Source: a virus | IMG/VR virus record: IMGVR_UViG_3300003716_000001 | Length of the DNA: 5,191 nucleotides | Direction: 5' to 3' (one strand) | In this document: positions 250 through 5,191 of the stretch, one piece after another | Layout of the letters: the number at the start of each line of letters is the position of its first letter | How positions within the stretch are numbered: the stretch's first letter is position 1 | The notes under the pieces: model-generated | What the model was told of the DNA's origin: nothing | What the model saw: the letters and a program-made list of their open reading frames with translations, nothing else | Databases searched by the model: none | Position numbers and translations under genes: made by a program

Positions 250-286
250 GTGGGCACATTTACCTACTAGATGTAAATGTGCCCAC
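250..286 (+). repeat. Perfect 14-bp inverted repeat (stem-loop) in the only sizeable non-coding region. Candidate terminator or ssDNA origin structure.
   Basis: GTGGGCACATTTAC (250..263) and GTAAATGTGCCCAC (273..286) are exact reverse complements, separated by a 9-nt loop CTACTAGAT. It lies 10 nt after the VP3 stop. No T-tract follows (TGACAGTCAAAGG). A smaller 7-bp hairpin CTCCCCA/TGGGGAG lies at 218..224/231..237. Confidence 0.9.
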
Positions 287-308: not shown

Positions 309-515
309 ATGGATAAAGTAAGATATAATTTAGTACAAGCTAAGAATAATGACGGTAAAAGTCATTGGATAAAAATAGGAATAGCCCAAAAACAGGGCGA
401 TAAGTTTTGGGTAAAAATGGATGTGTTACCAATACCAAACGAAAAAGGTGAAGTTTGGTTGAATCTTTATGAAAGGACAGATGATTATGTATCGGAAAAA
501 AATGTCGAAAGGTAA
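309..515 (+). CDS. Hypothetical 68-aa soluble protein, an orphan with no canonical Microviridae counterpart that I recognise.
   Basis: Intact ORF on the coding strand. It is preceded by AAGGAGGT with good spacing and occupies the VP3-VP4 interval, which is otherwise unassigned. No hydrophobic segment. Trp- and Lys-rich, and beta-strand-like by eye. Confidence 0.7.
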   Translation: MDKVRYNLVQAKNNDGKSHWIKIGIAQKQGDKFWVKMDVLPIPNEKGEVWLNLYERTDDYVSEKNVER

Positions 516-600: not shown

Positions 601-1493
601 TGCCTTGCTACAATCCGCTAGTTGGCTACAAGCTAGACGGCAAAGTAGTATTTGATAAGCCCTTTGCCCTTGCAAAGGGCTTTAATTTAGCTTGTGGTAG
701 GTGTATTGGGTGTCGACTAGAATATAGTCGGCAATGGGCGATAAGATGCGTCCATGAAGCCCAAATGCACGATAACAATTGTTTTATAACCTTGACGTTC
801 GACAATGAGTATTTGTCGAGTCGTGAAAATCCAGCTTCGCTGGATGTAAGTGAGTTTCAGAGATTTATGAAACGATTAAGGGAAAGATATAATCATAAGA
901 TTAGATTTTTCCATTGTGGTGAATACGGCGATAAAAATAAGAGACCACATTATCATGCCTTATTGTTTGGGCATGATTTTGAAGATAAAAAGTTGTGGTC
1001 AGTAAGAGATGATATAAGGCTGTATATTAGTGAAGAATTAAAACAGCTTTGGCCGTATGGATTCCACACAATAGGAGATGTTACTTTTGAAAGTGCCGCG
1101 TATTGTGCGCGGTATGTTATGAAAAAGATAACAGGAGATAAAGCGATAGAACATTATCGCGAGGTTGATTTAGAAACAGGAGAAGTAATAAACGAAATCA
1201 AACCAGAATACTGTACCATGAGCAGGCGTCCAGGCATTGGCGCCACATGGTACGAAAAGTATGGATGGGACGATTGCCACAAACATGACTTTATTGTTGT
1301 AAATGGCAAGGAAGTAAGGCCCCCAAGATACTATGATAAGCTATGCGATGAAAAAATAATGGTTGACATTAAGAAAAAGCGTATAGAAAATATGGATGAC
1401 CCAATAATCAATTATGATAATCGTATGGATAGATTATGGGTTGAAGAAGAAGTAAAAATGAGAAAGCTAGAAAAGCTAGTAAGAAATCTTTAG
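600..1493 (+). CDS. VP4: Rolling-circle replication initiator protein, HUH endonuclease superfamily (gokushovirus VP4, analogue of phiX174 A).
   Basis: 297-aa ORF with RCR motif I FITLTF (aa 62-67), HUH motif PHYHALLFG (HYH at nt 948..956), and a two-tyrosine motif YCARYVMKK (Y168 at 1101, Y172 at 1113) comparable to the phiX174 A active-site YxxxY-KK. N-terminal Cys cluster C3 and CGRCIGC (aa 32-38). GGAGGT at 583..588 upstream. Confidence 0.93.
   Translation: MPCYNPLVGYKLDGKVVFDKPFALAKGFNLACGRCIGCRLEYSRQWAIRCVHEAQMHDNNCFITLTFDNEYLSSRENPASLDVSEFQRFMKRLRERYNHKIRFFHCGEYGDKNKRPHYHALLFGHDFEDKKLWSVRDDIRLYISEELKQLWPYGFHTIGDVTFESAAYCARYVMKKITGDKAIEHYREVDLETGEVINEIKPEYCTMSRRPGIGATWYEKYGWDDCHKHDFIVVNGKEVRPPRYYDKLCDEKIMVDIKKKRIENMDDPIINYDNRMDRLWVEEEVKMRKLEKLVRNL
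657..688 (+). terminator. Perfect 11-bp stem, 4-nt loop hairpin with a T-rich tail, embedded in VP4 codons 20-30. Intrinsic-terminator/attenuator-like or origin-like structure.
   Basis: AAGCCCTTTGC (657..667), loop CCTT, GCAAAGGGCTT (672..682) are exact reverse complements, followed by TAATTT (683..688). TTGATA sits immediately 5' at 652..657. Confidence 0.45.
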
Positions 1494-1752: not shown

Positions 1753-3345
1753 ATGTTAGATAGTCGCACCGGAACATTACCAACAGTAATGAAACATGAG
1801 TTCAGCCGAGTACCGCAAGCGGATATACAACGGTCAACGTTCAACCGTAGCCACGGGTTAAAAACAACGTTTGATGCAGGTTATCTGGTACCAATATTGG
1901 TTGATGAGGTACTTCCGGGCGATACGTTTAGTGTAAACGCTATGGGGTTTGGCCGCTTGGCCACCCCAATTTATCCGATTATGGATAACTTGTATGTTGA
2001 GACATTTTTCTTTTTTGTACCAAACAGACTGATTTGGGACAATTGGGAACGTTTTAACGGCGCCCAAGATAACCCAACAGATAGTACAAGTTATTTAGTG
2101 CCACAAATTACGTTGGGTTCAGGTGTTAGCATTGCAGATAGCACATTGTTTGATTACATGGGTTTGCCAATTAATGTAAATGGAATTGCATTTAACAATT
2201 TGCATGGTAGAGCATATAATTTGATTTGGAATGAATGGTTTCGTGATGAAAACCTTCAGGATAGCGTACAAGTAGATAAGGACGATGGTCCAGATAGTAT
2301 TAATGATTATGTTTTGTTGAAGCGCGGTAAGCGGCATGATTATTTTACATCATGTTTGCCTTGGCCACAAAAGGGTGATGCAGTTAATTTGCCGTTAGGT
2401 ACTTCAGCACCCGTAATAGGTGATGGAACAAATGATATTTATCTGAATTATTCAGGTGGTAATGCAAGGTTGTCGGTTGATGGTTCAGGATTTCTGAAAG
2501 CAACAGGCCCAGCCGGCAATCAATACCCTAAATGGGGTACATTGACAACTTTTGAACAAACAGGTTTAGAAGTAGATTTGTCAACGGCAACAGCCGCAAC
2601 AATTAATGAACTGCGGGAAGCATTTCAAATTCAAAGACTGTATGAGCGCGATGCGCGAGGTGGTACACGTTACACAGAAATCCTACAAAGTCATTTTGGC
2701 GTTACATCGCCAGACGCTAGGTTGCAGCGTCCAGAATATTTGGGTGGTGGTAAATCACCTGTAGGTTTTGAAGCTGTACCACAGACAAGTAGTACAGACG
2801 CAACAACGCCACAAGGAAACTTGGCGGCCATGGCGCAAGTAGGTGTAGGAGGTCACGGGTTTACAAAGTCATTTACAGAACATGGCGTGATCATCGGTAT
2901 GGCAAATGTATTTGCAGATTTGACATATCAGCAAGGTATGAATCGTATGTGGAAACGGCGCGATCGTTGGGATTATTATTGGCCAGCGCTAGCGCATTTA
3001 GGAGAGCAAGCAGTCCTAAATGAAGAAATTTATGCACAAGGTACGTCAGCAGATACAGATGTCTTTGGATATCAAGAGAGGTACGCTGAATATCGCTACA
3101 AGCCGTCGCAAATTACAGGTAAAATGCGTAGTGCGGCGGCAGGAACGTTGGATGTTTGGCATCTTAGTCAAGATTTCAGCGCGTTACCAGTATTAAACAG
3201 TTCGTTTATCGAAGAAAATCCGCCAATCGATAGAGTAGTCGCGGTTACAAATGAGCCAGATTTTATATTTGATTGGTTTTTCAATATGAAAACAACGCGA
3301 CCGATGCCAGTGTACTCAGTGCCTGGACTAATCGACCATTTTTAG
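1753..3345 (+). CDS. VP1: Major capsid protein (Microviridae F/VP1 family).
   Basis: 530-aa ORF. N-terminal FSRVPQADIQRSTFNRSH...TTFDAGYLVPI..DEVLPGDTF, then ...RGGTRYTEILQSHFGV.SPDARLQRPEYLGGG and YQERYAEYRYKPS, are hallmark conserved blocks of Microviridae major capsid proteins. AGGAG at 1740..1744 is 8 nt before the ATG. The VP5 TAA abuts the VP1 ATG. Confidence 0.96.
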   Translation: MLDSRTGTLPTVMKHEFSRVPQADIQRSTFNRSHGLKTTFDAGYLVPILVDEVLPGDTFSVNAMGFGRLATPIYPIMDNLYVETFFFFVPNRLIWDNWERFNGAQDNPTDSTSYLVPQITLGSGVSIADSTLFDYMGLPINVNGIAFNNLHGRAYNLIWNEWFRDENLQDSVQVDKDDGPDSINDYVLLKRGKRHDYFTSCLPWPQKGDAVNLPLGTSAPVIGDGTNDIYLNYSGGNARLSVDGSGFLKATGPAGNQYPKWGTLTTFEQTGLEVDLSTATAATINELREAFQIQRLYERDARGGTRYTEILQSHFGVTSPDARLQRPEYLGGGKSPVGFEAVPQTSSTDATTPQGNLAAMAQVGVGGHGFTKSFTEHGVIIGMANVFADLTYQQGMNRMWKRRDRWDYYWPALAHLGEQAVLNEEIYAQGTSADTDVFGYQERYAEYRYKPSQITGKMRSAAAGTLDVWHLSQDFSALPVLNSSFIEENPPIDRVVAVTNEPDFIFDWFFNMKTTRPMPVYSVPGLIDHF

Positions 3346-3352
3346 GTGAAAA

Positions 3353-3520
3353 ATGAAAGCAAAATATGCAGTATATTTTGGGTTACTTAAACGCTTTGCT
3401 TTACCCATTATTATTGGAGGCCTTGTACTTTGGCTTGTTAATAATGGCTTTGGTAATTGGGCGGATATTGTATGCGACATTAGTACTAATTTAGGTGTTT
3501 ACGTAGCGGAGTGTAAATGA
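3353..3520 (+). CDS. Unannotated 55-aa small membrane protein with a single predicted TM helix. Candidate lysis or membrane-acting accessory protein.
   Basis: My own translation: MKAKYAVYFGLLKRFALPIIIGGLVLWLVNNGFGNWADIVCDISTNLGVYVAECK*. AGGTGA at 3344..3349, overlapping the VP1 stop, precedes the ATG at 3353. Stop TGA at 3518..3520 overlaps the VP2 ATG at 3517 (ATGA), so the ORF fills the 171-nt VP1-VP2 gap exactly. Basic N-terminus (K2, K4, K13, R14), hydrophobic core FALPIIIGGLVLWLV, acidic C-terminal part. Confidence 0.6.
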   Translation: MKAKYAVYFGLLKRFALPIIIGGLVLWLVNNGFGNWADIVCDISTNLGVYVAECK

Positions 3521-4191
3521 TGCTTCCATCAGCAGGAGCCATGATACAAGGTGCAGGTGCTGTTATACAAGGTTTAGCAGCTTATAAATCTGCACAGAAA
3601 CAAATGAAGTTTCAGCGGGAAATGTCTAACACCGCTGTACAACGTCAAATGGCCGACATGCGAGCGGCAGGGATAAATCCAATATTGGCTGCAAAATATG
3701 GCGGCGCAAGTACGCCAACTGGTGCAGCATATCAGGTTCCAAATATTGGGGCCGCAGCTGTTGAGGGATACAAAGGAGCCTCATCAGCAAAACAAATGCA
3801 AGAGCAAGCGAGGTTGACAGGAGTAAAAGCAGATATAGAAAAGCGTACGTTGGATTATTTAGAAAAAGAAAATTTAACGATGGCGCAAGTAATGTATACT
3901 GCAAAAAATGTATTTACGTCTAAAATGTTGGATACATTTGAAAAAGGTTTAAGCGGTAGATGGCAAGAATTACCAAATCCTTATAGAGGGATTGGTCAAT
4001 TTTTGCATAAAGAATTCAGGGACGCTGGAATGATATCACAAAGAGGCGAGGTGATGTCAATTTCAGGCGAAGGTTTAGGTAATTTAATTGCAAAAGCTGT
4101 TAAATTAGCAAGTGATGCAGGCGTGCAAGCAGTTACAGAAACAGGTCGCGGAATTATAGATGCAATTGCAGATAGGATAATGAAGAAATGA
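3517..4191 (+). CDS. VP2: Minor capsid / DNA pilot protein (gokushovirus VP2, phiX174 H analogue).
   Basis: 224-aa ORF downstream of VP1. Gly/Ala-rich N-terminus and the block FQREMSNTAVQRQMADMRAAGINPILA resemble the conserved VP2 motif I recall (..QR...D...AG.NP.LA). GGAG at 3508..3511 is 5 nt before the ATG. Confidence 0.85.
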   Translation: MMLPSAGAMIQGAGAVIQGLAAYKSAQKQMKFQREMSNTAVQRQMADMRAAGINPILAAKYGGASTPTGAAYQVPNIGAAAVEGYKGASSAKQMQEQARLTGVKADIEKRTLDYLEKENLTMAQVMYTAKNVFTSKMLDTFEKGLSGRWQELPNPYRGIGQFLHKEFRDAGMISQRGEVMSISGEGLGNLIAKAVKLASDAGVQAVTETGRGIIDAIADRIMKK

Positions 4192-4628
4192 CAAATAAAT
4201 TCAAAACAGGATATGTAGAGCGCAAGCGAGTTCAAACGAAGCCGGAAGGCGAAAGTTTGACACAGCAGCACTTCGCGAAAGAAGCGGATGTGCGTAATAT
4301 TATTAAGCAATATGACCGGACAGGGTTAATTGCAAATGTAGCGCGCGGTGTCGCGCAATATGGCGATTATTCGGAAATTAACGAATATCGCGAAAGTTTA
4401 GATATGGTTAATCGTGCAAACGATAACTTTATGCAGTTGCCAGCCGAATTAAGGCAGATGTTTGGCAACGATGCAGGAACGTTTTTTGAGTTCGCAACGA
4501 ACCCAGAAAACGAACAAAAAATGATCGAATTAGGACTGAAGGAGGCTCCAGTCGTAATAGAAGAAACGCCAAAAAAGGCGAAAAAGGAAGCGCCCGAACC
4601 TCCCGCTCCCCAAGAAGCTGGGGAGTAG
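4188..4628 (+). CDS. VP3: Internal scaffolding protein (gokushovirus VP3), full-length copy.
   Basis: 146-aa ORF whose ATG overlaps the VP2 stop (ATGA at 4188..4191). The block QQHFAKEADVRNIIKQYDRTGLI...YGDYSE...EYRESLDMVNRANDNFMQLPAELRQMFGNDAGTFFEF..NPEN...LGL matches the conserved gokushovirus scaffold pattern I recall. Charged, Pro-rich tail. Confidence 0.88.
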   Translation: MTNKFKTGYVERKRVQTKPEGESLTQQHFAKEADVRNIIKQYDRTGLIANVARGVAQYGDYSEINEYRESLDMVNRANDNFMQLPAELRQMFGNDAGTFFEFATNPENEQKMIELGLKEAPVVIEETPKKAKKEAPEPPAPQEAGE

Positions 4629-4637
4629 AGGGCGCGC

Positions 4638-4674
4638 GTGGGCACATTTACCTACTAGATGTAAATGTGCCCAC
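4638..4674 (+). repeat. Second written copy of the 14-bp stem-loop (same as 250..286).
   Basis: GTGGGCACATTTAC at 4638..4651 and GTAAATGTGCCCAC at 4661..4674. Same locus in the circular genome. Confidence 0.9.
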
Positions 4675-4988: not shown

Positions 4989-5191
4989 TGCCTTGCTACA
5001 ATCCGCTAGTTGGCTACAAGCTAGACGGCAAAGTAGTATTTGATAAGCCCTTTGCCCTTGCAAAGGGCTTTAATTTAGCTTGTGGTAGGTGTATTGGGTG
5101 TCGACTAGAATATAGTCGGCAATGGGCGATAAGATGCGTCCATGAAGCCCAAATGCACGATAACAATTGTTTTATAACCTTGACGTTCGAC
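4988..5191 (+). CDS. VP4: N-terminal 68 codons of VP4, second written copy, truncated by the window end (same as 600..803).
   Basis: ATG at 4988. The sequence reads MPCYNPLVGY...FITLTFD and stops at the window edge without a stop codon. Confidence 0.9.
   Translation, partial: MPCYNPLVGYKLDGKVVFDKPFALAKGFNLACGRCIGCRLEYSRQWAIRCVHEAQMHDNNCFITLTFD
5045..5076 (+). terminator. Second written copy of the intragenic VP4 hairpin (same as 657..688).
   Basis: Same sequence at offset 4388. Confidence 0.45.

What the first reader, a model, noticed from the sequence alone, without database searches (positions are those of the whole stretch)
3353..3520. Hidden 55-aa single-pass membrane ORF filling the VP1-VP2 gap: candidate single-gene lysis protein
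The ORF track leaves 3346..3516 empty. Read by hand, an SD-like AGGTGA and an ATG at 3353 open a 55-codon frame. Its TGA overlaps the VP2 ATG (ATGA), so the gap is filled edge to edge in an otherwise gap-free genome. The product has a basic N-terminus, one hydrophobic helix containing a proline (FALPIIIGGLVLWLV) and an acidic tail. This predicts an N-in/C-out topology by the positive-inside rule. Established knowledge: phiX174-type microviruses lyse with protein E, a small N-terminal-TM protein with a functionally essential TM proline that inhibits MraY. Gokushoviruses have no E homologue, and their lysis function is generally unassigned. A small TM protein translationally coupled to the late structural genes is therefore a plausible unrelated lysis effector. 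A superinfection-exclusion or membrane-anchoring factor is an alternative. Caveat: the stretch is T-rich. A second hydrophobic ORF exists in the +1 frame (3366..3494, MQYILGYLNALLYPLLLEALYFGLLIMALVIGRILYATLVLI), but it has no SD at usable spacing, so the choice of frame and coding status are not proven.
Basis: partly seen in the sequence, partly recalled or inferred. Interest (0 to 1): 0.75.

Follow-up and report, generated by a model that had tools for sequence, protein, structure and literature searches.

The report
Two nested small membrane-protein genes
The "empty" gap between the capsid and pilot genes of this small marine gokushovirus holds a real, conserved 55-residue membrane-protein gene, and probably a second very hydrophobic gene nested in its +1 frame, which makes the pair the best testable candidates for this phage group's unknown host-lysis function.

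Summary
ORF 3353-3520 exists, starts 3 nt after a perfect anti-SD match (AGGTGA), and its TGA overlaps the VP2 ATG. It is a real gene. Homologues fill the same VP1-VP2 slot in 96 of 111 related loci (76 distinct proteins, 55-61 aa). P18, G22, W27, C41 and C54 are invariant. Substitutions are biased to third codon positions. The flanking charges predict an N-in/C-out topology. The family has no detectable relative among known families, including phiX174 E.

It is open in 68 of 77 members. In those members, fourfold sites are 60% T, against 26-28% in VP1 and VP2, and synonymous divergence is 0.36-0.41 of the flanking genes. The eight members with a closed +1 frame show neither effect. +1 stops are rarer than codon permutation predicts in 13 of 14 clusters.

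Function is untested. A lysis module is the most plausible role (about 0.4), and the weakly initiated nested ORF resembles E/L-type lysis genes at least as much as the 55-aa protein does. A sister clade lacks the slot entirely, so the gene is an accessory one.

The parts
1753..3345 (+). VP1 major capsid gene. Its stop codon TAG (3343-3345) lies inside the SD of the small gene.
   Evidence: Pfam Phage_F E 3e-189, PHROG 514. Sequence.
3344..3349 (+). Shine-Dalgarno AGGTGA, 3 nt upstream of ATG 3353. It is a perfect complement of the 16S 3' tail UCACCU (established knowledge).
   Evidence: An SD-like motif lies within 16 nt of the start in 66 of 77 family members, AGGTG in 37 of them.
3353..3520 (+). 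Gene for the conserved 55-aa single-pass membrane protein ('Gap55'), frame 0.
   Evidence: 76 distinct homologues. P18, G22, W27, C41 and C54 are invariant. dN/dS is 0.37. The AlphaFold2 model has mean pLDDT 85.8, with helices at 3-30 and 34-46.
3395..3439 (+). Hydrophobic core (residues 15-29, FALPIIIGGLVLWLV). Its conserved face is P18-G22-V25-W27/L28. P18 is the codon at 3404-3406.
   Evidence: Kyte-Doolittle mean 2.56, Hessa-scale sum -0.82 kcal/mol. Column conservation.
3443..3517 (+). Acidic C-terminal tail (residues 31-55), predicted to be periplasmic. It contains an amphipathic helix (34-46) and the invariant cysteines C41 (3473-3475) and C54 (3512-3514).
   Evidence: The periplasmic location and a C41-C54 disulfide are inferences.
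3366..3494 (+). Nested +1-frame ORF: 42 aa, very hydrophobic (MQYILGYLNALLYPLLLEALYFGLLIMALVIGRILYATLVLI), with no SD of its own.
   Evidence: Family-wide evidence of selection. The signal is weaker in the window's own cluster (fourfold T 0.32-0.41, pS ratio 0.52).
3508..3511 (+). GGAG, the SD of VP2, lying inside codons 52-53 of the small gene, 5 nt before ATG 3517.
   Evidence: Read directly. Third-position G is nearly fixed at codon 52 across the family.
3517..4191 (+). VP2 DNA pilot gene. Its ATG overlaps the small gene's TGA (ATGA), indicating translational coupling.
   Evidence: PHROG pilot-protein families, E 1e-28. Most family members have the junction TAATG or ATGA.

Best explanation
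The VP1-VP2 gap is a compact module that encodes membrane proteins.

Shown:
- Frame 0 (3353-3520) encodes a conserved 55-aa protein. It is read from a strong SD that overlaps the VP1 stop, and it is stop/start-coupled to VP2. It should therefore be made together with the late structural proteins.

Inferred from sequence:
- The protein is a bitopic inner-membrane protein. A short basic N-terminus faces the cytoplasm. It has a 15-residue hydrophobic helix whose invariant P-xxx-G-xx-V-x-W-L face suggests specific packing against another transmembrane helix. Its 25-residue acidic tail faces the periplasm, with C41 and C54 positioned to form a disulfide.

Shown statistically for the family, less strongly for this window:
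- A second ORF nested in the +1 frame (3366-3494; 42-51 aa in relatives) is kept open. It is kept hydrophobic by T at what are its second codon positions. It suppresses synonymous change in frame 0. Its ATG lies 5 nt before, or 4 or 13 nt after, the main ATG. It is badly placed relative to the SD, so it should be translated weakly.

Inferred function:
- These are the only membrane-targeted accessory products of a phage that has no muralytic enzyme and no known lysis gene. I take the module to be the phage's host-envelope/lysis device.
- The weakly initiated, overprinted, fast-evolving hydrophobic peptide is the E/L-like effector or co-effector.
- The conserved 55-aa protein either targets a host membrane or periplasmic cell-wall factor itself, or controls the peptide.

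Sub-probabilities:
- Frame 0 is a real gene: 0.97.
- N-in/C-out membrane protein: 0.8.
- The +1 ORF is functional in the family: 0.7; in this window: 0.55.
- The module acts in lysis: about 0.4.
For: Coding and conservation:
- Homologues are in the same slot in 4 GenBank relatives, in 36 IMG/VR loci and in 96 of 111 loci overall.
- The family has 77 distinct DNAs and 76 distinct proteins of 55-61 aa.
- P18, G22, W27, C41 and C54 are invariant.
- Variable sites by codon position are 75/30/119.
- Within-group changes are 125 synonymous versus 93 non-synonymous in frame 0, 65/153 in +1 and 23/193 in +2.
- dN/dS is 0.37.

Topology:
- Family net charge is +2.4 at the N-terminus and -2.75 in the C-tail. 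The hydrophobic core is residues 15-29.
- The AlphaFold2 model has pLDDT 85.8.

+1 ORF:
- It is open for at least 40 codons in 68 of 77 members, against 2 of 77 for +2.
- Fourfold-site T is 0.60 and A 0.11 in open members. In closed members T is 0.26 and A 0.37. In VP1 and VP2 of both classes T is 0.21-0.28.
- The ratio of synonymous divergence (pS), small gene over VP1, is 0.41 in open members and 0.98 in closed ones. Against VP2 it is 0.36 and 1.11.
- With no selection on openness, +1 stops are fewer than within-sequence synonymous-codon permutation predicts in 13 of 14 clusters (Wilcoxon p = 0.004). +2 goes the other way.
- A nearby +1 ATG accompanies openness. In cluster 0, all 14 open members have it and none of the 6 closed members do.
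- There is no conserved RNA structure, and the RNA fold z-score is -0.64.

Lysis inference:
- No peptidase or endolysin domain is present in any ORF.
- All other ORFs are assigned or soluble.
- Gokushoviruses lack a known lysis gene (PMC7062461; PMC3394797).
- Non-homologous small hydrophobic ORFs occupy the same slot in L091 and L115.
Against: - No functional data exist.
- A sister clade (L099, L102, L103, L105, L106, L109; VP1 about 68% identical) has the VP2 ATG abutting the VP1 stop and has no such gene. phiMH2K and Chp2 also lack it. Gokushoviruses can therefore complete their cycle without it.
- Eight family members have lost the +1 ORF, and no replacement gene was seen in six of those genomes that were mapped.
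- A strong SD and coupling to the most abundant protein predict high, early expression of the 55-aa protein. This is unlike E or L.
- An invariant cysteine pair is not a feature of known single-gene lysis proteins.
- The T-rich, A-poor third positions also open the antisense frame in 50 of 77 members. Part of the +1 openness is therefore compositional.
- The window's own cluster shows the weakest bias, and its +1 ATG has no SD.
- The sequences are phylogenetically related, so the P values are approximate.
Confidence: 0.4

Rival explanations
1. The 55-aa protein alone is a single-gene lysis protein that blocks a lipid II pathway enzyme through its proline-containing transmembrane helix. The +1 ORF is a non-functional by-product.
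For: - The helix face is conserved, with invariant P18 and G22. This is the kind of surface with which E binds MraY (established knowledge).
- It is the only conserved accessory membrane protein in the genome.
- It is present in all 77 members, including those without the +1 ORF.
- Gokushovirus lysis is unassigned.
Against: - There is no homology to E.
- The predicted topology is opposite to that of E (plus established knowledge of E as N-out/C-in).
- Strong translation signals would risk premature lysis.
- Synonymous constraint and context-specific avoidance of +1 stops need another explanation.
- The gene is absent from the sister clade.
Confidence: 0.2
2. The 55-aa protein is a non-lytic accessory membrane protein. 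It could be a phiX174 K-like modulator of burst size, a superinfection-exclusion or DNA-entry blocker, or a membrane anchor or chaperone for the hydrophobic pilot protein VP2, to which it is translationally coupled.
For: - Expression is tied to VP1 and VP2 by overlapping signals.
- The gene is dispensable at clade level.
- The conserved periplasmic cysteine pair and amphipathic helix suggest a folded binding module rather than a simple toxin.
- phiX174 carries a non-essential 56-aa hydrophobic protein K (established knowledge).
Against: - Superinfection exclusion is of little value to a lytic phage at low marine host densities (inference).
- There is no homology to any exclusion or defence family (PADLOC, PHROGs).
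- This model leaves the phage with no lysis candidate other than the +1 peptide.
Confidence: 0.3
3. The T-rich synonymous sites reflect selection at the nucleotide level rather than a translated +1 ORF. Candidates are U-rich mRNA of a membrane protein, an unstructured single-stranded DNA/RNA stretch, or a replication or priming signal downstream of the capsid gene, as in the phiX174/G4 F-G spacer.
For: - A-depletion also affects NCN codons, which cannot form +1 stops.
- The antisense frame is opened too.
- The single-stranded DNA fold has z = -2.41.
- The window's +1 ATG lacks an SD.
Against: - +1 stops are avoided beyond what composition predicts in 13 of 14 clusters, while +2 stops are not.
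- A +1 ATG co-occurs with openness.
- T at frame-0 third positions is exactly what makes the +1 product hydrophobic.
- There is no conserved structure and no Rfam hit.
- The bias disappears completely in members with a closed +1 frame.
Confidence: 0.2
4. The ORF is not a gene but a chance open frame in a T-rich spacer.
For: None beyond its small size and the absence of database annotation in 7 of 8 GenBank records.
Against: Length, start, stop and five residues are conserved across 14 clusters that share less than 65% identity, with third-position-biased substitution.
Confidence: 0.02

Closest known systems
phiX174 protein E (Bullavirinae single-gene lysis protein, MraY inhibitor)
   Same: - It is a small microvirus membrane protein with one transmembrane helix carrying a conserved, functionally critical proline.
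- E is overprinted in the +1 frame of another gene (D) and weakly translated. This is the geometry of the nested 3366-3494 ORF here (D/E coordinates).
   Different: - There is no sequence relationship (hhalign probability 0.1%; E sequence verified).
- The 55-aa protein has its own slot and a strong SD.
- Its predicted topology (N-in/C-out) is opposite to that of E.
- It has a cysteine pair in the tail, and it lacks a long basic cytoplasmic domain.
Single-gene lysis proteins of ssRNA phages (MS2 L, SglM, SglPP7)
   Same: - They are 35-75 aa with one transmembrane helix.
- They evolve de novo, often overprinted, with little sequence conservation and patchy distribution.
- L-type proteins are N-in with a basic N-terminus.
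- The +1 peptide fits this profile.
   Different: - They come from a different virus realm.
- No motif is shared, for example the LS dipeptide of L-like proteins.
- Their targets (MurJ, DnaJ-dependent autolysis) are untested here.
phiX174 protein K
   Same: It is a non-essential hydrophobic protein of about 56 aa in a microvirus, encoded in overlapping frames, with a modest effect on burst size (established knowledge).
   Different: There is no similarity in genomic position, and no sequence comparison was run. K has no conserved cysteine pair.
Hok/Gef type I toxins with the overlapping mok frame
   Same: They are peptides of about 50 aa, N-in/C-out, with a basic N-terminus, one helix and a periplasmic tail with conserved cysteines. 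The toxin frame is overlapped by a second frame that controls its translation (established knowledge).
   Different: There is no Pfam Hok/Gef hit, even at E <= 10. They are chromosomal or plasmid addiction modules regulated by antisense RNA, not phage late genes.
Lambda Rz/Rz1 spanins and class III holin T4 T
   Same: - Rz1 is nested entirely in the +1 frame of Rz, which is a type II (N-in/C-out) membrane protein with periplasmic disulfides.
- T4 T is N-in, single-pass, with a disulfide-containing periplasmic domain.
- Nested architecture is typical of lysis cassettes.
   Different: - The tail here (25 aa) is far too short to span the periplasm.
- The +1 product has no lipobox.
- There is no endolysin in the genome for a holin to release.
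Bdellovibrio phage phiMH2K orfN
   Same: It is a gokushovirus overlapping ORF that its annotators likened to phiX174 E and K (annotation note).
   Different: It is nested in the Rep gene (VP4), is 109 aa and is not homologous. phiMH2K has only an 81-nt VP1-VP2 gap with no ORF.

Membership tests
phiX174 E lysis protein family | Detectable sequence or profile homology to E | tested here: not met
   hhalign of the 35-sequence profile against E gave probability 0.1% over 3 aligned columns. The E sequence was checked against J02482. There is no Pfam family at E <= 0.01, and only SxtJ and RepB_C noise at E <= 10.
phiX174 E lysis protein family | N-terminal transmembrane helix with an essential proline | tested here: met
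   One hydrophobic helix at residues 15-29, with P18 invariant in 77 of 77 members. This is a resemblance only; whether the proline is essential was not tested.
phiX174 E lysis protein family | N-out/C-in topology with a basic cytoplasmic C-terminal domain | tested here: not met
   The family N-terminus has net charge +2.4 and the C-tail -2.75, which predicts N-in/C-out. This is a prediction, not a measurement.
phiX174 E lysis protein family | Gene overprinted inside the external scaffold gene D | tested here: not met
   The 55-aa gene occupies its own slot between VP1 and VP2. Gokushoviruses have no D gene.
phiX174 E lysis protein family | Inhibits MraY; lysis depends on SlyD | not testable with these tools
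   This needs expression and suppressor genetics.
Single-gene lysis proteins (functional class) | Expression of the gene alone causes lysis of growing cells | not testable with these tools
Single-gene lysis proteins (functional class) | Small protein with a membrane-spanning segment, in a phage without an endolysin | tested here: met
   Both products are hydrophobic. No muralytic or peptidase domain is present in any ORF of the genome.
Holin | Partner endolysin encoded by the same phage | tested here: not met
   The Pfam and PHROG scans of all nine ORFs found only capsid, pilot, scaffold, Rep, ORF5 and ORF8-like families.
Hok/Gef toxins | Match to the Hok/Gef profile | tested here: not met
   No Hok/Gef hit among the 35 members at E <= 10.
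Functional overlapping (overprinted) gene, applied to the +1 ORF | Frame kept open across divergent relatives beyond the compositional expectation | tested here: met
   68 of 77 members are open for at least 40 codons. There are fewer stops than synonymous-codon permutation predicts in 13 of 14 clusters, p = 0.004.
Functional overlapping (overprinted) gene, applied to the +1 ORF | Reduced synonymous rate in the host frame relative to the flanking genes | tested here: met
   The pS ratio is 0.41 against VP1 and 0.36 against VP2 in open members, and 0.98 and 1.11 in closed members. For the window's own cluster it is 0.52.
Functional overlapping (overprinted) gene, applied to the +1 ORF | Conserved start codon with a usable initiation context | tested here: inconclusive
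   About 58 of 76 members have an ATG at -5, +4 or +13 relative to the main ATG. However, the spacing to the SD is poor. The window's ATG at 3366 has no SD, and a few open clusters have no nearby ATG.
Functional overlapping (overprinted) gene, applied to the +1 ORF | Product detected | not testable with these tools
   This needs ribosome profiling or proteomics.

The most novel reading that the evidence does not exclude
A clade of marine gokushoviruses carries a previously unrecognised dual-coded lysis cassette of about 170 nt. It consists of a conserved type II membrane protein with a disulfide-stapled periplasmic tail and, overprinted in its +1 frame, a weakly translated hydrophobic peptide. 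Together they effect and time host lysis through a target unrelated to the E-MraY mechanism. This would be the first lysis system identified for the Gokushovirinae and a new family of 'protein antibiotics'.
Probability: 0.25. Interest if true: 0.85.

Novelty: new variant of a known kind. Interest (0 to 1): 0.62.

Why it matters
- How gokushoviruses get out of their hosts is an open question. They are among the most abundant ssDNA phages in oceans and guts, yet they lack E, and most lack any peptidase (PMC7062461, PMC3394797).
- This module gives two concrete candidates of about 50 residues each. They can be synthesised and tested directly.
- If either candidate is lytic, it defines a new small-protein inhibitor or disruptor of the Gram-negative envelope.
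- Independently of function, the family is a clean natural experiment in overprinting. Lineages with and without the nested ORF sit side by side, and codon usage and synonymous rate switch accordingly.
- The gene is missing from the annotation of 7 of the 8 GenBank genomes that carry it. Microvirus annotation pipelines with length cut-offs are therefore systematically missing it.

Tried and rejected
- Known-family searches of the 55-aa protein found nothing credible. This covers Pfam, PHROGs, NCBIfam, PADLOC, PDB sequences, Foldseek against PDB, and Rfam for the region. The best Foldseek E-value was 4. The weak SxtJ and RepB_C hits are below threshold and are treated as noise.
- An exhaustive HMM search of 1.84 billion representatives found only 17 hits, 15 of them proteins of 55-60 aa. 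There is therefore no cellular homologue to borrow a function from.
- A structured RNA/DNA element does not explain the synonymous constraint. RNAalifold predicts no pairs on 23 sequences, and the RNA z-score is -0.64. The single-stranded DNA z-score of -2.41 is marginal and is not supported by covariation.
- No promoter-like or terminator-like site lies on the + strand in the gap.
- I considered stop-codon readthrough of VP1 into the +1 ORF. I rejected it because the frame relation to VP1 differs between clusters. The spacing between the VP1 stop and the small ORF's ATG is 7, 8 or 9 nt.
- The antisense ORF (3328-3480, minus strand) is open in 50 of 77 members. I treat it as a by-product of A-poor third positions, because microviruses transcribe one strand only.
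- The phiX174 D/E overlap did not work as a positive control for the T-bias signature. D is T-rich at third positions throughout.
The VP1-based scan found only phage-sized contigs in Gammaproteobacteria MAG bins and one Prochlorococcus single-cell assembly. The host remains uncertain.
- Pooled dN/dS over all pairs was uninformative because synonymous sites are saturated. It was replaced by within-cluster analyses.
Full report
**Context**

The window is one unit of a 4388-nt circular genome plus an exact 803-nt repeat of its start. Profile searches identify the standard gokushovirus gene set:

| Gene | Coordinates | Evidence |
|---|---|---|
| Rep | 600-1493 | REP_ORF2-G2P |
| ORF5 | 1504-1752 | Phage_ORF5 |
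| VP1 | 1753-3345 | Phage_F, E 3e-189 |
| VP2 pilot | 3517-4191 | pilot-protein PHROGs |
| VP3 scaffold | 4188-4628 | Chlamy_scaf |
| ORF8-like basic protein | 469-600 | phrog_10695 (function unknown); resemblance to Chp2 ORF8 |
| Unassigned 68-aa ORF | 309-515 | none |

No ORF has a peptidase or muralytic domain. The nearest GenBank genomes are uncultured marine and Ciona-gut microviruses, about 76% identical over parts of the genome.

**Checking the observation**

- The VP1 stop TAG is at 3343-3345.
- AGGTGA is at 3344-3349.
- ATG is at 3353, opening a 55-codon frame.
- TGA is at 3518-3520, overlapping the VP2 ATG at 3517.
- The alternative +1 ORF is at 3366-3494.

AGGTGA is a perfect complement of the 3' tail of 16S rRNA (established knowledge), and 3 nt is a suitable spacing for that part of the anti-SD. 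The VP2 SD (GGAG, 3508-3511) lies inside codons 52-53 of the small gene.

**Is frame 0 a gene?**

Yes.
- The four closest GenBank genomes all have a VP1-VP2 gap of 160-180 nt filled by a homologous ORF. Only KC131023 annotates it, as a hypothetical protein.
- In tblastn, 8 phage records carry it, and 7 of them do not annotate it.
- Protein searches returned 34 clusters of 54-64 aa from microvirus-sized contigs.
- An exhaustive HMM search of 1.84 billion representatives returned only 17 hits, 15 of them proteins of 55-60 aa.
- I fetched DNA by the family motif (36 loci) and by VP1 (80 loci). A family member follows VP1 in 96 of 111 loci. Most of the rest are contigs that end at VP1.
- This gave 77 distinct DNA sequences and 76 distinct proteins of 55-61 aa, in 14 clusters at 65% identity.
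- P18, G22, W27, C41 and C54 are invariant. V25, L28 and W36 are nearly so. Position 13 is always K or R, and position 31 is always N or H.
- Within subfamilies, variable sites fall 75/30/119 on codon positions 1/2/3. Changes are 125 synonymous to 93 non-synonymous in frame 0, against 65:153 in +1 and 23:193 in +2.
- Within-cluster dN/dS is 0.37.
- The start lies 7-9 nt after the VP1 stop in 59 of 77 sequences, with an SD-like motif in 66 of 77. The stop usually abuts or overlaps the VP2 ATG (TAATG or ATGA).

The architecture of VP1 stop, SD, small gene, VP2 start is therefore itself conserved.

**What the protein looks like**

- The only strongly hydrophobic stretch is residues 15-29 (Kyte-Doolittle 2.56; Hessa-scale sum -0.82 kcal/mol). 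It is bounded by K13/R14 and N30/N31.
- Across the family the N-terminal segment has net charge +2.4 (range +1 to +4) and the tail -2.75 (range -5 to 0). The positive-inside rule gives N-in/C-out (inference).
- AlphaFold2, run on the 35-sequence alignment, gives pLDDT 85.8 with helices at 3-30 and 34-46.
- The conserved positions P18, G22, V25 and L28/W27 fall on one helix face. This suggests specific helix-helix packing (inference).
- The tail has an amphipathic helix and the invariant C41/C54 pair. In a periplasmic location, a disulfide is the natural reading (inference).
- No library or structure search gives a credible relative. The profile does not align with phiX174 E (E sequence verified).

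**The +1 frame**

Frame 0 is clearly the conserved protein, but the +1 frame behaves like a second gene.

1. Openness. It is open for at least 40 codons in 68 of 77 members, against 2 of 77 for +2.
2. Codon usage. The small gene's codon usage differs from every other gene of the same genomes.
   - Family third positions are T 0.48 and A 0.15, against 0.34 and 0.33 in VP1.
   - In the window, third-position T is 0.49, against 0.21-0.35 elsewhere.
   - At fourfold sites of codons 2-46, open members have T 0.60 and A 0.11. The eight closed members have T 0.26 and A 0.37.
   - VP1 and VP2 of both classes have T 0.21-0.28.
   - A frame-0 third position is the second position of the +1 codon. T there is exactly what makes the +1 product hydrophobic.
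3. Synonymous divergence. In open members it is 0.41 of that in the last 120 codons of VP1, and 0.36 of that in the first 120 codons of VP2. In closed members the ratios are 0.98 and 1.11.
4. Stop avoidance beyond composition. I did not select on openness. I held each sequence's codon composition fixed by permuting synonymous codons. +1 stops in codons 1-46 are fewer than expected in 13 of 14 clusters (Wilcoxon p = 0.004). +2 stops are more frequent than expected in 12 of 14 clusters.
5. Start codons. An ATG in the +1 frame lies 5 nt upstream, or 4 or 13 nt downstream, of the main ATG in about 58 of 76 sequences. In the largest cluster it is present in all 14 open members and in none of the 6 closed ones.
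6. Structure. No conserved RNA structure exists.

The products are 42-51 aa, with two hydrophobic stretches separated by a polar or basic patch. Their sequences drift freely apart from what frame 0 imposes.

Caveats:
- A-poor third positions also open the directly antisense frame in 50 of 77 members. Composition therefore explains part of the openness.
- The sequences are related, so the statistics are approximate.
- The +1 ATGs sit badly with respect to the SD.
- The window's own cluster shows the weakest bias (fourfold T 0.32-0.41; pS ratio 0.52), and its ATG at 3366 has no SD.

I put the probability that the +1 ORF is functional at about 0.7 for the family and 0.55 for this window.

**Distribution**

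- The module is an accessory one.
- A sister clade with about 68% VP1 identity (L099, L102, L103, L105, L106, L109) has the VP2 ATG abutting the VP1 stop, in genomes of about 4.1 kb with six genes.
- phiMH2K and Chp2 have short gaps with no such ORF.
- Two other lineages carry unrelated small hydrophobic ORFs in the same slot: L091 (76 aa) and L115 (38 aa). The slot therefore seems to be a recurrent site for small membrane proteins.
- Host clues are weak. Phage-sized contigs occur in Gammaproteobacteria MAG bins and in one Prochlorococcus single-cell assembly. The latter (L114) carries both the 55-aa homologue and an open +1 ORF.

**Function**

Nothing here tests function.

For a lysis role:
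- The phage must lyse its host.
- It encodes no muralytic enzyme.
- Gokushoviruses have no known lysis gene (PMC7062461; PMC3394797).
- Apart from the hydrophobic N-terminus of the pilot protein, these are the only membrane-directed products.
- Nested or overprinted small membrane genes are a hallmark of phage lysis functions: E in D, L in the ssRNA phages, and Rz1 in Rz (established knowledge).

Against a simple E-like role for the 55-aa protein:
- Its predicted topology is opposite to that of E.
- It has a strong SD and is coupled to the most abundant protein.
- It has an invariant cysteine pair.
- Relatives manage without it.

The weakly initiated, fast-drifting, lineage-variable +1 peptide fits the profile of E/L-type effectors better. 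However, eight family members lack it.

My best single model is a two-product envelope/lysis module (about 0.4). The rivals are:
- lysis by the 55-aa protein alone (0.2);
- a non-lytic accessory membrane role, such as a K-like function, exclusion, or handling of the pilot protein (0.3).

A separate question is whether the synonymous bias reflects selection at the nucleotide level rather than translation of the +1 ORF (0.2).

**Novelty**

- The ORF has been deposited once as a hypothetical protein. [quoted passage not shown]
- In the literature searches run here, no paper was found that assigns it a function or notes the nested frame.
- It is a new protein family, and apparently a new instance of overprinting in Microviridae. 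The general kind of thing, small phage membrane proteins and overlapping genes, is well known.

Noticed in passing
window 250-286 (and the repeat copy at 4638-4674): A perfect 14-bp inverted repeat (GTGGGCACATTTAC ... GTAAATGTGCCCAC, 9-nt loop) lies in the only sizeable non-coding stretch (241-308), between VP3 and the 68-aa ORF. It could be a terminator, an origin, or a minus-strand priming hairpin.
   Followed up: partly
window 309-515: An unassigned 68-aa soluble ORF has a perfect SD (AAGGAGGT) and overlaps the ORF8-like basic protein gene (469-600). Homologues are visible in many relatives (for example MWNVNYKVVQAKKSGDRTNW... in L068, L073 and L080). It has only noise-level profile hits.
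   Followed up: partly
L078 415-579, L080 4262-4426, L068 3570-3734, L070 3708-3872, L063 3346-3510 and others; window about 4350-4390: A conserved 54-aa basic ORF (MAIIQKSM.MQKL...NSTIMLDYFLNLPPIRKTRKK) is nested in an alternative frame of VP3 in all ten cluster-0 genomes listed. In the window the same frame starts MAIIRKLTNIAKV and then hits a stop. This may be another overprinted gene that is absent here.
   Followed up: no
L102, L109, L106, L099, L103, L105: A sister clade (VP1 about 68% identical) lacks the VP1-VP2 slot completely, and its genomes are only about 4.1 kb. L102 and L109 share a 58-aa partly hydrophobic ORF nested in VP1 (MLDY.A.NTS...). L102 and L106 have another at VP1 offset about 680. 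Whether these substitute for the missing module was not examined.
   Followed up: no
L091 3879-4109; L115 2445-2561: Unrelated small hydrophobic ORFs (76 aa and 38 aa) end at or overlap the VP2 start in more distant gokushoviruses. The VP1-VP2 junction may be a recurrent landing site for small membrane-protein genes.
   Followed up: partly
L114 (QCLV01000032.1, Prochlorococcus sp. AG-418-F08 single-cell assembly, 4599-nt contig): This is a complete-looking gokushovirus contig inside a Prochlorococcus single-cell genome. It carries the 55-aa homologue (1511-1681) and an open +1 ORF (1542-1667). It is a possible host clue, or the result of co-sorting.
   Followed up: partly
window 666-680 (and 5054-5068): A terminator-like hairpin, GCCCTTGCAAAGGGC followed by TTTAATTT, lies inside the Rep gene. 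It overlaps the conserved peptide KPFALAKGFNL. It could be coincidental, or it could relate to the plus-strand origin, which lies within gene A in phiX174.
   Followed up: no
protein P0051 (129 aa): A metagenomic protein joins the first 33 residues of a family member (MNGFKWTIIINMARKFALPAIFGSLVLWLIHHN) to about 96 unrelated residues. It is probably a deletion, a frameshift or an assembly variant.
   Followed up: no
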